Made by a program: the position numbers and the translations under genes
Part shown: piece after piece, positions 49,520 through 58,103 of the stretch
How positions within the stretch are numbered: position 1 is the stretch's first letter
How the letters are laid out: each line of letters opens with the position of its first letter
Notes under the pieces: generated by a model
What the model saw: only the letters and a program-made list of their open reading frames with translations
What the model was told of the DNA's origin: nothing
Database searches by the model: none
NCBI GenBank assembly: GCA_964016885.1
Contig: OZ024762.1
Span: 13,206,001 to 13,270,000 of the forward strand
Length of the DNA: 64,000 bases
Direction of reading: 5' to 3'
Origin: Eledone cirrhosa
Taxonomy: Eukaryota

Positions 49520-49717
49520 ACGTTATTCCGGGTTGAATCGGAGGTAACCACAGTAAGTAAGGTACTCAATACATTGCAGAGTATAAAAGTTTTAATATAG
49601 ATGAGATTCTACCGGACTAGAACTGTTTCATTCTTTAGAAATCATCAGGAGATTCCTGATGATTTCTAAAGAATGAAACAGTTCTAGTCCTGTAGAATCT
49701 CATCTATATTAAAACTA
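49520..49717. mobile_element. Fold-back cassette (family F) with two abutting HHRs
   Basis: Palindrome ~49589-49717 centred at CAGGAGATTCCTG; left-only tail. Confidence 0.85.
49649..49701 (+). ncRNA. Type I hammerhead ribozyme
   Basis: GAGATTC-CTGATGA-TTTCTAAAGAAT-GAAA-CAG-TTCTAGTC-CTG-TA-GAATCTC; 7-bp stem I. Confidence 0.9.
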
Positions 49718-50044
49718 TATATGTATATATATATATATATATATATATATATATATATATATATAAATATATATATATATGTATATATATATATATATAT
49801 ATATATATATATATATATATATATATATATATATATATATATATATATATATATATATATATATATATATACAGAATAGAAAAGGTCGAGCTTTCGTAAA
49901 TAAATATATATATATATATATATATATAAATTTATACATCTTACTGTTTCGACATGGAAATATGCTAAATATCCCGATTGCTCGGCATATTGAGAAAAAA
50001 TAAAGATGTTTATCATATTTTATCATTTAGAATGTACATGGAAC

Positions 50045-50497
50045 TACATGTAGCAGATATGTTTACGTATAGCAGATATGATTAAATGTAGCAGATATGT
50101 TTACATGTAGCAGATATGATTAAATGTAGCAGATATGTTTCACATGTAGCAGATATGTTTACATGTAGCAGATATGTTTTCACATGTAGCAGATATGTTT
50201 ACATGTAGCAGATATGTTTTCACATGTAGCAGATATGTTTTCATGTATCAGATAGGTTTACATGTAGCAGATATATTTACATGTAGAAGATATGTTTACA
50301 TGTAATAGATATATTTACATGTAGCATATATAATTACATGTAGTAGATATGTTTACATGTAGCAGATATGTTTTCACATGTAGGAGATACATTTTCATGT
50401 AGTAGACATATTTACATGTAATAAATATATTTACATGTAGTAGATATATTTACATGTAGTAGACATGTTCACATGTAGTAGATATGTTTACATGTAT
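50045..50497. repeat. 19-21-bp minisatellite TTTACATGTAGCAGATATG
   Basis: More than 20 tandem units. Confidence 0.9.
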
Positions 50498-51804
50498 AGA
50501 GTCATAGTAATCTCAATACAAATATACAACTTTATCAAATATTTATGGTGTTTGGAGCAAATATTCTATATATATATACATATATATATATACATATATA
50601 TACATATATATATATATATATATATATACATATATACATATATATATATATATACATATATATATACATATATATACATATATATATATATATATATATA
50701 TGTGTGTGTGTGTGTATGTGTGTGTGCGTATGTATGTGTATATATACGTATATATATATATATATGTATGTAAATATAAATGTACATATGTACACACACA
50801 TATATATATGTATATATAAACATGTATATATGTATATATATAAATATAATGGTTATAGGAATATGTCTGTACAGGAATATGCCTGTATAGATATTTATAC
50901 AGACATTAGAATAGATAACTATATACACTTTCATGTATATACAGAGTATAGGTAAACAGCGCTAGATATATACATACATACATATGTATATATATACATA
51001 TATATATATATATATACATATATATATATATATATACATATATATATATACATATATATATATATATATATATATATATATATATATATATATATATATA
51101 TATATATATATATATATATATATATATATATATATATATACAAACTCAGTTATTTATACGAACACATGAGATATGTCTTATACACACCTGCCATTATACA
51201 CAACCAAAAAGTCGCATTATATTTGCATATACATAGATACATACATATATATATATATACATATAACACACACACACACACACACACACACACATATATA
51301 TATGTATATATATATATATATATGTGTGTATATACACACACACATACACACACACACACATGATAATAGTATTTATATTTATATATATAAACTATATAAT
51401 ATAGTATATATCTATACGATATATATATATATATATATATATATATATATATATATATATATATATATACAATATATATATATATACAATATATTTATAC
51501 GATATATATATATATACAATATATCTATACGATATATATATCTATCTATATACACAATATATATATACGATATATATATATATATATATATATATATACA
51601 ATATATCTATACGATATATATATATATATATATATATATATACAATATATCTATACGATATATATATATTGTATATATATATATAATTATTCATATACGC
51701 AATATATATGGACAGGTATATGTTCTATATATATGAATACATATTCAAGATACTTATATATATATATATACAGATTATATTTATCTATAAAATACATGAT
51801 ATAA

Positions 51805-51972
51805 AAGAGAGGTAGCACTCTCAAAAAAGGTACTCAATACATTAGTGGAGTGTAAGTATGTATATTGTATTATAGAAATAACTTCTACTTCGTAGGAAAT
51901 CATCAGGAAAATTCTGGTGAATTCTTACGAATAAAATAGTTCTAGTCTTGTAGAAGTTATTTATATAATAAA
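51805..51972. mobile_element. Degenerate family F fold-back cassette
   Basis: GGTACTCAATAC..AAATCATCAGGAAAATTCTGGTGAATTCTTACGAATAAAATAGTTCTAGTCTTGTAGAAG. Confidence 0.65.
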
Positions 51973-52180
51973 ATGAATGTATGTATATATATATATATAT
52001 ATATATATATATATATATATATATATATAAATATAAATAAATATATATATAAATATATATTGTCGCAAACATGCACACCATATCTGTTTATATTTATATA
52101 TATATACACACACACACACACACACACATATATATATATATATATATATATATATATATATATATATATATATATATATA

Positions 52181-52279
52181 AAGGGTGCCCCCCAAAATTT
52201 TATACACACATTCATTACCTGTACAGGCAAGCAACATTTATTAGAATGCTGTTAAAGTGTGTATACATTTTTGGGACAC
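52181..52279. mobile_element. Tc1/mariner-type MITE
   Basis: AGGGTGCCCCCCAAAA..TATACATTTTTGGGACAC; core inverted relative to 38808. Confidence 0.75.
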
Positions 52280-52560
52280 ACACTCTGCGTATATATATAT
52301 TTATATATGCATATATATATATATATATATATATATATATATATACAGTCGACCTCAGTGGATCAACTATGAAACAATTTCGATATATATTTGATGTGAG
52401 TTCGAATCCTGGGTACGACATTTCTTCCCACTTCTAGGATTTTAGAAAACCAACTTTCCAACTATCATCTCACTGTCACGTGAACAATATTAATAATAAT
52501 ATATATATATATATATTATATATATATATTATATATATATTATATATATATATATATATA

Positions 52561-55027: not shown

Positions 55028-55224
55028 GGCGGTGAATTGGCAGTATCGGTAGAGGGTCGGACGCCATGCTTTCCAGCATAGTTACGTCCCTTTACAGTCT
55101 GAGTTCAAATCCCGCCGAGGTTAACTTTGCCTTTCATCCTTACGGGGTCGATGAAGTAAAGTACCAGTAATGTACTGGGTATTTGCTGGCCTTGTGCCAA
55201 AAGTAGAAACAATTATTATTATTA
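55028..55224 (+). mobile_element. Near full-length tRNA-derived SINE (Meta/MESC-like domain, (ATT)n tail)
   Basis: A box TGGCAGTATCGG, B box GTTCAAATCC, then CTTTGCCTTTCATCCTTACGGGGTCGATGAAGTAAAGTACCAG. Confidence 0.8.
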
Positions 55225-55296
55225 TGTGTGTGTATATATATATGTGTGTGTGTGTATGTGTGTGTGCGTGTGCGTGTCTGTGCGTGTGTGTGTGTA

Positions 55297-55460
55297 TCCC
55301 GGGTTCAATCTGGGGTAACCACAGTAAGTAAGGTACTCAATACATAGCAGAGTATAAATATTTAATTTAGAAATGGCTTCTACGGGACTAGAACTGTTTC
55401 CTGATGATTTCCACCGAATGAAACAGTTCTAGTCCTGTAGAAGCTATTTCTATATTAAAC
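55297..55460. mobile_element. Fold-back cassette (family F) with intact + strand HHR at 55396-55444
   Basis: GTTTC-CTGATGA-TTTCCACCGAAT-GAAA-CAG..CTG-TA-GAAGC; left arm truncated at GAAA, tail as at 49520. Confidence 0.8.
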
Positions 55461-56589
55461 ACACACACACATATCTTGATATATAGATAGATAGATATGT
55501 CTATATATATATGTGTATGTGTGTATGTATAGATATAAACATATACATGTTTATTTATATATATATATATATATATATATATATATATATACATGTTCAT
55601 ATATATATATATATATATATATACATACATGTTCATATATATATATATTAGTTGTGCCTTGCGTTTTACATGAAATATAGTAGGGTAATGTGTATATATA
55701 GATTATATATACTTTAAGACAGATTTCTTATAAACGCACTCACCCACACACCCACACACACATATATATATATATATATATATATACAGCCATACATCTG
55801 TATAGAAATATATATATATATATATATATATATATATATATATACATAGATATATATTCACGTTCATTCACAAACATATACACACATATATATATATACC
55901 CGATATATTTGTGAATATATGTTTTACTCTTATCTCACAAAAGAATGACAGATACTATATATATATATGCATATATATATATATATACACACACCTTCCT
56001 ACTTTTCTATTTATATACAGTCAATATGCGGGCATGCATGCACACTGCTTCACATTTGCACATGCATAGCTCCATACATGCGCACACACAGACATGCACT
56101 CACATGCACAGCCGCACTTGTCATTTCTCACGACATGCAAGACACCAAGTATATATATATATATATATATATATATAAAAATACGACAGGGCACTGATAC
56201 ACATGCATATAGGGAGACAGATACACACACATACATACATACATACATACACATATATAAATATAGACACAGCAAAATTACACACGCCATAGACGCATGC
56301 TTATATGTAAGGAGAGAGACACACATATAAAGATGCACACACACACAGACACACACACAGACACAGACACACCCACACACATACAGACATACAGACACAC
56401 ACACACAGAGAGAGACACACACACACACACACACACACACACACAGACACAGACACACACACACACACACACACACAGACACACTAGTGTTGTCTCGTGA
56501 CGATTATATTCACCAGAATGCTGCAAAGATGCAAAAATGCTGGAATGCAAGATTCTTGAGTCGCAAAGAAAATAGCACACTGCCTTGAA

Positions 56590-57395
56590 TGTGTGTGTGT
56601 AGGTGAGTGTGTGTGTGTGTGTAGGTGAGTGTGTGTGTGTCTGTAGGTGAGTGTGTAGGTGAGTGTAGGTGAGTGTGTGTGTGTGTGAGTGTGTGTGTGT
56701 AGGTGAGTGTGTGTGTGTAGGTGAATGTGTGTGTGTGTGTGTGTAGGTGAGTGTGTGTGTGTGTGAGTGTGTGTGTGTGTAGGTGAGTGTGTGTGTGTGT
56801 GTAGGTGAGTGTGTGTGTGTGTAGGTGAGTGAGTGTGTGTGTAGGTGACTGCGTATGTGTGTGTAGGTGAGTGTGTGTGTGTGTGTAGGTGAGTGTGTGT
56901 GTATGTTTAGGTGAGTGTGTGTGTATGTAGGTGAATGTGTGTGTGTGTGTAGGTGAGTGTGTGTGTGTAGGTGAGTGTGTGTGTGTAGGTGAGTATGTGT
57001 GTGTGTAAGTGAGTGTGTGTGTGTGTGTGTGTGTAGGTGAGTGTGTGTATGTGTAGGTGAGTGTGTGTGTGTGTAGGTAAGTGTGTGTGTGTGTGTGTAG
57101 GTGAGTGTGTGTGTGTGTAGGTGAGTGTGTGTGTGTGTGTATGTGAGTGTGTGTGTGTAGGTAAGTGTGTGTGTGTGTAGGTGAGTGTGTGTGTGTAGGT
57201 GAGTGTGTGTGTAGGTGAGTGTGTGTGTGTGTCAAGGTGACAGTGTGTGTGTGTGTAGGTGACAGTGTGTGTGTGTAGATGAATGTGTGTGTGTGTGTAG
57301 GTGAGTGTGTGTGTGTTTAGGTGACTGTGTGTGTGGTAGGTGAATGTGTGCGTGTGTGTAGGTGAGTGTGTGTGTGTAGGTGAGTGTGTGTGTGT
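56590..57395. repeat. (GT)n-AGGTGA compound repeat
   Basis: Direct reading. Confidence 0.9.
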
Positions 57396-58052
57396 CTAAA
57401 TATATATATATATATTTAGACACACACACACACACACACACTCACCTACACACACACACATATATATATATATATATTGTTATACTTTGGGAGGGTCATG
57501 TTGCCAATAAGATACACACGCACCAGTATAACAATATCGGTTTCAACACACGTTTTCAGATAAAGAATCTTGCTAAACAAATTCAGAAACGAAATATATA
57601 TATATATACATATATATATATATATATATATTTATATATATATGTATATTATATATATATATATATATATATATATATATATATATATATATTATATATA
57701 TATACGTATATGTATCTACACACATATATATATATATATATACATTCATATTTGTGTGTAGATATATATATATATATATATATATATATATATATATATA
57801 TATATATATATATATATATACATACATACATATATATATATATATATATATATATATATATATATACATACATATATATATATATATATACATATATATA
57901 TATATATTTATAAATATATATATATATATATATATTTTATAAATATATATATATGTGTGTAGATACATATACATGCATATATTTGTATATATATATATGT
58001 ATATATGTGTGTGTGTATATATATATATATATAAATTATTCCTTGGACAGTC

Positions 58053-58103
58053 AGCTTCCTGATGATTCCTCACGAATGAAACAGTTCTAGTCCTGTAGAA
58101 GCT
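58053..58103 (+). ncRNA. Type I hammerhead ribozyme (family F, solo)
   Basis: AGCTTC-CTGATGA-TTCCTCACGAAT-GAAA-CAG-TTCTAGTC-CTG-TA-GAAGCT. Confidence 0.9.

What the first reader, a model, noticed from the sequence alone, without database searches (positions are those of the whole stretch)
49649..58103. Compensatory changes in stem I among family F hammerheads
Seen: stem I is GAGATTC/GAATCTC at 49649, AGCTTC/GAAGCT at 58053 and GTTTC/GAAGC at 55396. The stem II loop varies while the core and CAG..CTG-TA are invariant. The stem III loop contains the palindrome CTAG. Inference: the structure was under selection in the source elements, so these are real ribozymes, possibly acting as dimers.
Basis: partly seen in the sequence, partly recalled or inferred. 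Interest (0 to 1): 0.7.

Follow-up and report, generated by a model that had tools for sequence, protein, structure and literature searches.

The report
Retrotransposon RNA starts on its hammerhead
These hammerhead-shaped motifs are short leftover copies of the end repeat of a Penelope-like jumping gene with over 20,000 matches in the genome; one stem changes on both sides between its subfamilies, so the parent elements likely kept a working self-cutting RNA, and an extra G at the stubs' edge suggests the element's RNA begins on the ribozyme's first letter.

Summary
Family F is the type I hammerhead in the pseudo-LTR of a Hydra-clade Penelope-like retrotransposon: 22,055 pattern matches, core 190 nt upstream of an RT/GIY-YIG ORF. 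The window copies are promoterless stubs in (TA)n; two named ones are fold-back inversions. Across subfamilies stem I has two double changes and one wobble; majority core changes fall only at the tolerant positions 7 and 17. Selection in source elements is likely; cleavage is untested. Dimer: modelled as favourable, but CTAG never covaries. Further: a TATA box lies about 30 nt before stem I, 43 of 94 tail-anchored copies end there, and 57 of 87 TA-abutting copies carry a non-native G (control 1 of 40). Transcription likely starts on stem I, and the stubs are run-off cDNAs of uncut capped RNA. 22 of 30 ORF-bearing copies extend past the promoter, fitting circular or tandem templates. The scan noted the cap pattern before in two other genomes (AI notes). 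Known kind, new family.

The parts
49519..49650 (-). Insertion 1, long arm (subfamily A): from 2 nt before the core to the far end of the tail (+129); complete core at 49648-49625; one stem III change
   Evidence: blastn to a natural long copy, 97% over 132 nt; core match
49649..49649 (+). Junction G: not native (long copies have C); either the complement of the inverted arm's C or a cap-derived extra G
49650..49716 (+). Insertion 1, short arm: hammerhead starting at the inferred transcription start; stem I 49650-49655 / 49695-49700, core from 49656, predicted cut after 49694; ends in (TA)n about 21 nt past the cut
   Evidence: 98.5% over 67 nt; the two arms fold into one 126-nt hairpin of -94.4 kcal/mol
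51827..51973 (.). Insertion 4, decayed fold-back copy (minus arm about 51827-51910, plus arm 51914-51973); core broken
55295..55400 (-).
   Evidence: 91.5% over 106 nt to a B copy
55398..55459 (+). Insertion 2, short arm: core from 55401, predicted cut after 55439; only 3-4 nt of the native 5' stem I strand remain
58039..58116 (+). Insertion 3 (C-type): native sequence from 20 nt before the core; stem I AGCTTC/GAAGCT 58053-58058 / 58098-58103; C.A mismatch in stem II; predicted cut after 58097; both ends in (TA)n
   Evidence: 92% over 78 nt
49400..49518 (.). (TA)n target repeat on the left of insertion 1 (it continues on the right from 49717)
   Evidence: sequence

Best explanation
The motifs are end-repeat (pLTR) fragments of a Hydra-clade Penelope-like retrotransposon inserted in (TA)n, and the hammerhead they carry was likely kept functional in the parent elements, not in these stubs. 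Shown: the motif sits 190 nt before the RT-endonuclease ORF and again at the end of the 3' UTR; subfamilies differ by paired changes in stem I; copies end at two sites past the cut site; many are head-to-head inversions. Inferred (about 0.85): RNA polymerase II starts about 30 nt after a conserved TATA box, on the first base of stem I, so the capped RNA begins with the 51-nt ribozyme. Inferred (about 0.8): the element's RT primes at nicked (TA)n on both strands, at two internal sites about 10-25 and about 90 nt past the cut site. When it does so on the uncut 5' end it runs off the cap, often adding a G, and two such cDNAs join into the fold-back stubs of the window. Inferred (about 0.45): cutting at both ribozymes and ligation gives a circle, and copying round it places the 3' UTR, with the promoter, in front of the ORF; only such copies can be parents, which would explain selection on the fold. 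Activity is probably low and assisted by the element's protein or by pairing of two ribozymes through loop III (about 0.5).
For: [quoted passage not shown] Many 758-aa open frames. Core at -189 to -192 in most ORF-bearing loci, with a second copy 3.1-4.3 kb downstream in L120, L121, L126 and L132. Selection: 94.9% of 351 cells paired; 2 pairs change on both sides (14 cells; 0 of 500 shuffles as high), both in stem I. Across 8 groups the majority letter varies in 0 of 16 columns of stems II, III and the U.U base, in 2 of 11 core columns (N7 and H17), in 4 of 4 loop II columns and in 15 of 22 spacer columns. Chance that five changed stem I columns keep all pairs: 0.006-0.027. Start site: TATA-to-core spacing at one of two adjacent values in 80 of 85 copies picked by a pattern allowing eight. 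43 of 94 tail-anchored copies end at -8..+3 and 5 of 94 in -99..-9. G just before stem I in 57 of 87 TA-abutting GGCTT-type places (hand count), against native C in 32 of 36 long copies and 1 of 40 at an internal control site. An untemplated G is read as a cap mark in PMC9341517 (passages). 0 of 103 copies end within 8 nt of the cut. 22 of 30 ORF-bearing copies extend past the TATA box. Internal RT starts, nicking of both strands, uncut template and a protein-assisted hammerhead were shown for Poseidon (PMC11167929).
Against: No cleavage data. The double changes are only about two to three evolutionary events; 'pairs with a change on both sides' (2) is not above shuffles (424 of 500), and stems II and III never covary. 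Stem II is 3 bp on a U.U base with no G10.1-C11.1 pair. The hammerhead-shaped monomer is not the lowest-energy fold in any of the nine sequences tested, and the three window motifs fold no better than shuffles (z -0.27 to 0.13). Groups G and C2 were partly defined by stem I letters. 11 of the 57 G cases could come from a short fold-back arm (46 of 74 after dropping the 13 CAG-containing places). The control site is biased to T by TA microhomology. Pfam gave only a weak GIY-YIG match (E 0.04-0.1) and no RT match. 3 of 30 ORF copies end 2-6 nt upstream of the start. In Poseidon, ribozyme mutants did not impair insertion in vitro.
Confidence: 0.72

Rival explanations
1. The fold is conserved for a role other than cleavage: a promoter-proximal, RT-binding or translation-control structure at the RNA's 5' end, with the catalytic core vestigial.
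For: Weak stem II without G10.1-C11.1, and monomer folds no better than shuffles. No sampled copy ends within 8 nt of the cut site. Poseidon inserts equally well with a dead ribozyme in vitro. The tail motif is also conserved between subfamilies (15,048 exact matches).
Against: The only majority core changes are at N7 and H17, the positions that hammerhead catalysis tolerates (tolerance from established knowledge). The core and the ACAG/CUGU-A stem III recur in Hydra elements of coral, anemone and hemichordate.
Confidence: 0.13
2. The ribozyme is real, but promoter-bearing copies come from read-through of tandem parents or from cDNA jumping from the cap to the 3' repeat, not from circles; the ribozyme only trims or decaps transcripts.
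For: Both routes also give copies longer than one unit. Some ORF matches lie 2.6-8.5 kb apart. PMC11167929 proposes multi-copy mRNA as the template.
Against: It does not by itself explain why parents keep the fold. A linear capped template should leave many ORF-bearing copies ending at the cap site; at most 3 of 30 end near it.
Confidence: 0.35
3. The paired changes in stem I arose mechanically, by template switching between the two strands of this short inverted repeat during reverse transcription, and were merely tolerated.
For: Junctions cluster in and next to stem I and use its microhomology; the window's 55396 copy is such a product.
Against: It does not explain the invariant stems II and III or the position of the core changes. 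A separate hairpin at the far RT start also covaries (T-A 46, C-G 18, mismatched 3, of 67 scored among 99).
Confidence: 0.15
4. The pile-up of 5' ends at stem I is RT stalling at the folded ribozyme rather than the end of the RNA.
For: 39 of the 43 copies ending at -8..+3 have an inverted arm next to them, so structure-driven switching is conceivable.
Against: RT would meet the fold from its 3' side (about +45), where there is no peak. The edge fits TATA spacing and a pyrimidine-purine start. The non-native G also appears in copies that abut (TA)n directly.
Confidence: 0.1

Closest known systems
Hydra-clade PLE hammerheads (PMC8557442: section 11, passages, Files S1 and S2, part of S4 seen)
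   Same: C-terminal endonuclease ORF with DKT, CxCX5C, CxxC and CxH; (TA)n targets; inverted 5' copies; CUGANGA-U...U-GAA architecture; stem III ACAG/CUGU-A as in Hydra-1_aMil, Penelope-1_NV and Penelope-1_SK.
   Different: Loop III is 8 nt with a central CUAG, against 1-3 nt in the 26 Hydra rows of File S2. Stem II has only 3 bp. The unit is 3.1-4.3 kb, against generally under 3 kb. The tail is about 68 nt, against 30-40. The motif reads RWR for RWK. The listed octopus family Hydra-1_oBim has a different ribozyme, and the family F stem III string is absent from the supplement.
Minimal and palindromic-helix-III hammerheads of metazoan PLEs (PMC4209133: parts 1-2 of 4 read)
   Same: Type I, in both pLTRs, mostly solitary truncated copies, pairs on opposite strands, covarying families, proposed dimer and circular intermediate.
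   Different: Helix III here is long enough to close as a monomer (modelled -1.4 kcal/mol). There is no G10.1-C11.1 pair. That text gives no start site or cap mark.
Poseidon of Anolis, PAc (PMC11167929: parts 1-2 of 4 read)
   Same: Two internal RT starts past the cut site define the tail; both DNA strands are primed in AT-rich DNA; uncut RNA is the template.
   Different: Different clade. In PAc the ribozyme overlaps the start codon; here the core is 190 nt upstream. The starts here are inferred from insertion ends only.
Non-LTR retrozymes (10.64898/2026.07.22.740005: part 1 of 5 read; PMC7229834: listing only)
   Same: Type I hammerhead related to PLE pLTRs.
   Different: These copies are dispersed stubs and fold-backs of an autonomous element, not head-to-tail arrays of a non-coding unit.

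Membership tests
Type I hammerhead ribozyme | Core CUGANGA / GAAA / NUH in the right order | tested here: met
   majority changes only at N7 and H17
Type I hammerhead ribozyme | Three stems around the core, stem I open | tested here: met
   94.9% of cells paired; stems of 6, 3 and 4 bp
Type I hammerhead ribozyme | Covariation supporting the stems | tested here: inconclusive
   two double changes and one wobble in stem I, none in stems II and III; few independent events
Type I hammerhead ribozyme | G10.1-C11.1 pair closing stem II | tested here: not met
   U.U in all 27 rows; the same U...U is common in published Hydra rows
Type I hammerhead ribozyme | Match to an Rfam hammerhead model | tested here: not met
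   no match at gathering score; none among the 150 of 202 weak matches shown
Type I hammerhead ribozyme | Self-cleavage after NUH | not testable with these tools
   needs a bench assay
Dimeric (double) hammerhead | Self-complementary helix III favouring a symmetric duplex | tested here: inconclusive
   duplex -12.8 against two hairpins -2.8 kcal/mol, subfamily D -15.2; 105 of 840 loop permutations as good; no alternative palindrome subfamily
Penelope-like element, EN+ | Single ORF with RT and C-terminal GIY-YIG endonuclease | tested here: met
   Pfam GIY-YIG only weak
Penelope-like element, EN+ | pLTR with hammerhead on both sides of the ORF, tail, inverted 5'-truncated copies | tested here: met
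Hydra clade | DKT, CxCX5C linker, CxxC and CxH motifs | tested here: met
   read in the ORF against section 11
Hydra clade | RWK motif | tested here: inconclusive
   RWR in this family
Hydra clade | Insertion into (TA)n | tested here: met
Hydra clade | Placement in an RT tree with named Hydra proteins | not tested
Non-LTR retrozyme | Head-to-tail arrays of a short non-coding unit | tested here: not met
   sampled copies are dispersed, inverted or ORF-linked; no genome-wide array search was run

The most novel reading that the evidence does not exclude
The element's capped RNA begins on the first base of its hammerhead, so the promoter is left behind at every round. Cutting at both ribozymes and circularising is what lets a daughter regain the promoter, which is why the fold is selected only in parent lineages, while uncut RNA yields tens of thousands of dead cap-run-off stubs. 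The genome thus records both templates and answers what PLE hammerheads are for.
Probability: 0.35. Interest if true: 0.72.

Novelty: new member of a known kind. Interest (0 to 1): 0.45.

Why it matters
Hammerheads in Penelope-like elements are known, and their purpose is stated to be unclear (PMC8557442 passages; in PMC11167929 cleavage was dispensable in vitro). This family offers a young, abundant system with many intact ORFs. Its start site, two RT starts and cut site can be read from insertions, and short and ORF-bearing copies point to different templates. That makes the circle model directly testable. It also warns that apparent covariation among stubs can be produced by inversion junctions.

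Tried and rejected
Rfam: no hammerhead match (the weak matches shown are mostly microRNA models on microsatellites). GTTTC/GAAGC as a stem variant: rejected (junction). An extended stem I beyond 6 bp: not found; the base before it is unpaired in long copies. Alternative palindromes in loop III: 75 and 41 scattered double mutants, no subfamily. Cut-site-ended copies: about 5 of 94 end within +36..+41, no clear peak. Five tail-anchored rows were dropped because their best reference (L133) has a (TA)n run upstream that gave false extension, and one duplicate was dropped (94 of 100 listed places used). Tail columns were ignored because rows without a tail distort them. 3' end counts above 95 nt are inflated by (TA)n in a reference and were not used. 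The flank tree is poorly resolved for C and C2 and was used only to gauge the number of events. Retrozyme array: rejected for the sampled copies. Earlier findings by sequence and by place: nothing. Literature searches for a start site or cap mark at a PLE hammerhead and for octopus hammerheads showed none in listings or in the parts read. Older Penelope promoter work (recalled, not read) and closed bioRxiv supplements could bear on this.
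Full report
Observation. The loose core pattern matches 9 times in the window against 0.11 expected. A fourth complete core lies on the minus strand at 49625-49648, head to head with the one at 49656, and a decayed copy lies at 51827-51973. Insertions 1 (49519-49716) and 2 (55295-55459) are fold-backs: a long minus-strand arm joined to a short plus-strand arm. GTTTC at 55396 is the reverse complement of the long arm's GAAAC, and G49649 is not the native letter, which is C in long copies. Only the A-U versus C-G change between 49650 and 58053 is a true double change.

What the element is. A strict pattern has 22,055 matches in the 3.0-Gb genome and none for the reversed control. 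In long copies the core lies 189-192 nt upstream of an ORF, and in L120, L121, L126 and L132 a second copy lies 3.1-4.3 kb downstream. The ORF has YRDD, SDKT, a CxCX5C linker, a GIY-YIG-like region, CxxC and CxH. PMC8557442 section 11 lists DKT, the linker, CxxC, CxH and (TA)n targeting as features of the Hydra clade. Many copies have 758-aa open frames, so the family is young. Pfam support is weak. 1,411 unnamed homologues were found, the 120 listed at 39-54% identity. File S2 of that paper shows the same U...U base of stem II in many Hydra ribozymes and ACAG/CUGU-A stem III in three or four of them, always with a loop of 1-3 nt. The 8-nt loop with CUAG is particular to this family, whose stem III string is not in the supplement.

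Selection on the fold. Long copies with native upstream sequence fall into subfamilies whose ORFs differ down to about 70% amino-acid identity: A AGATTC/GAATCT; C and D AGCTTC/GAAGCT; G GGCTTC/GAAGCC; B GGCTTT/GAAGCC. On 27 aligned rows (24 long copies and the three window copies), 94.9% of 351 cells pair. Two stem I pairs change on both sides in 14 cells (0 of 500 shuffles as high), but the number of such pairs is not above shuffles (424 of 500), and stems II and III do not covary. Across eight groups the majority letter changes in 0 of 16 columns of stems II, III and the U.U base, in 2 of 11 core columns, in 4 of 4 loop II columns and in 15 of 22 columns between TATA box and stem I. The two core changes are at N7 and H17, which hammerhead catalysis tolerates (established knowledge). 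Five random column changes would keep all six stem I pairs with probability 0.006, or 0.027 with transition bias. This is modest but consistent evidence, resting on about two to three events. Against strong monomer activity: stem II has 3 bp and no G10.1-C11.1, the hammerhead shape is not the lowest-energy fold, and z-scores are near zero.

Dimer. Stem III as a symmetric duplex is modelled at -12.8 kcal/mol against -2.8 for two hairpins, and subfamily D extends the palindrome to ACUAGU (-15.2). Co-folding gives closed stem I plus the duplex for C, G, B and D but not for A. However, 105 of 840 permutations of the loop and 29% of random loops are as stable, and double changes in CTAG are scattered (75 and 41 places). 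The window copies are not tandem partners: the inverted pairs form long hairpins. A natural dimer would have to join the two pLTR copies of one transcript, or two RNAs.

Where the RNA starts. I sampled the first 100 of 15,048 exact matches to a tail motif, without requiring the ribozyme; 94 were usable. Their 5' ends, relative to the first core base, are: 16 beyond -100; 5 in -99..-9; 43 in -8..+3; 30 downstream. The edge is the first base of stem I (-6). All subfamilies have TATAAATA about 35-36 nt before the core, that is about 30 nt before stem I, across a diverged spacer, and stem I starts at a pyrimidine-purine step. Among copies that abut (TA)n directly, the base before GGCTT is G in 57 of 87 distinct places (A 14, T 14, C 2; hand count). 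It is G in 14 of the 18 inspected with flanks and in 46 of 74 without the CAG-containing places. Native long copies have C in 32 of 36 and G in 1; the target has no G; the complement of the base after stem I is A or T. At an internal control site G precedes 1 of 40 places. In subfamily A the count is G 17, C 11, T 9, A 4 of 41, but there G could also come from the opposite stem strand. An untemplated G with a pyrimidine/purine initiator is read as reverse transcription of the cap in PMC9341517 (passages). I reached this reading before the look-up of earlier notes; two AI notes on other genomes report the same pattern. They are not independent evidence.

Mechanism. 3' ends fall mainly 9-28 nt (53 of 103) or 80-95 nt (26 of 103) past the cut, and none within 8 nt of it. 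This matches the two internal RT starts, the priming on both strands and the uncut template shown for Poseidon (PMC11167929). A hairpin just before the far start covaries (T-A 46, C-G 18, mismatch 3, of 67 scored). I infer that priming on the capped 5' end gives run-off cDNAs of about 60-135 nt, often joined head to head; these are the window's stubs, and selection does not act on them. ORF-bearing copies behave differently: 22 of 30 extend past the TATA box, 3 end at -8 to -12 and 5 start downstream of the core (one locus is the reference itself, and two pairs look duplicated). They need a template in which the 3' UTR precedes the ribozyme and ORF. A circle made by cutting at both ribozymes, as proposed in PMC4209133, does this and would explain selection. 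Tandem read-through or a template jump would also do it, and I cannot separate these.

Verdict. The kind is known: PLE hammerheads, covarying families, opposite-strand pairs and the dimer idea (PMC4209133), and the Hydra clade (PMC8557442). The family and its long loop III were not in the material read. Searches showed no paper placing a PLE start site on stem I, within the limits of the library. Cleavage, dimer and circle are untested. Interest 0.45.

Noticed in passing
window 1192-1250 (+): Another hammerhead-like motif with a long stem II and stem III ACCA-C-TGGT-A, the pattern listed for Hydra-1_oBim in File S2 of PMC8557442; likely a second Hydra family.
   Followed up: partly
window 21455-21493 (+): Minimal hammerhead-like motif: stem I CGAG/CTCG, stem III AC-AATT-GT with a palindromic loop, cut triplet GTT.
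   Followed up: partly
window 7279-7307 (-), 12475-12502 (+), 38402-38426 (+): Further core-pattern matches that look decayed or accidental.
   Followed up: no
L092, L104, L135 (700-1300 nt from the ORF start): A different small hammerhead family with stem I AATATTG/CAATATT and a palindromic ACTAGT stem III, inserted near family F elements.
   Followed up: no
tail hairpin, e.g. window 49528-49543 (-) and 55297-55312 (-): Four-pair hairpin just before the far 3' end with a T-A / C-G double change between subfamilies; candidate RT start signal.
   Followed up: partly
window 52562-52680 and 53865-53930: Near-perfect inverted repeats of another family (GACGGCTGAG...CTCAGCCGTC); similar sequence in L026 and L270; fold-back or MITE-like.
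   Followed up: no
window 55020-55200: tRNA-derived SINE-like sequence; resemblance to cephalopod SINEs is recalled and comes from no call.
   Followed up: no
L031 3348-3845 (+): Separate GIY-YIG fragment (Pfam E 5.9e-5) with a CxxC-type lead-in, upstream of the family F pLTR; probably another PLE clade.
   Followed up: no
window 50050-50495 and 56590-57395: Minisatellite arrays (a unit of about 21 nt containing ACATGTAGCAGATAT; GTAGGTGA units within GT repeats).
   Followed up: no
listing; L246, L011, L020: Subfamilies with a seven-letter 5' strand (GGCTTTC or GGCTTTT) against GAAGCC, implying a bulge in stem I; L226 and L249 have GTT at the cut triplet.
   Followed up: partly
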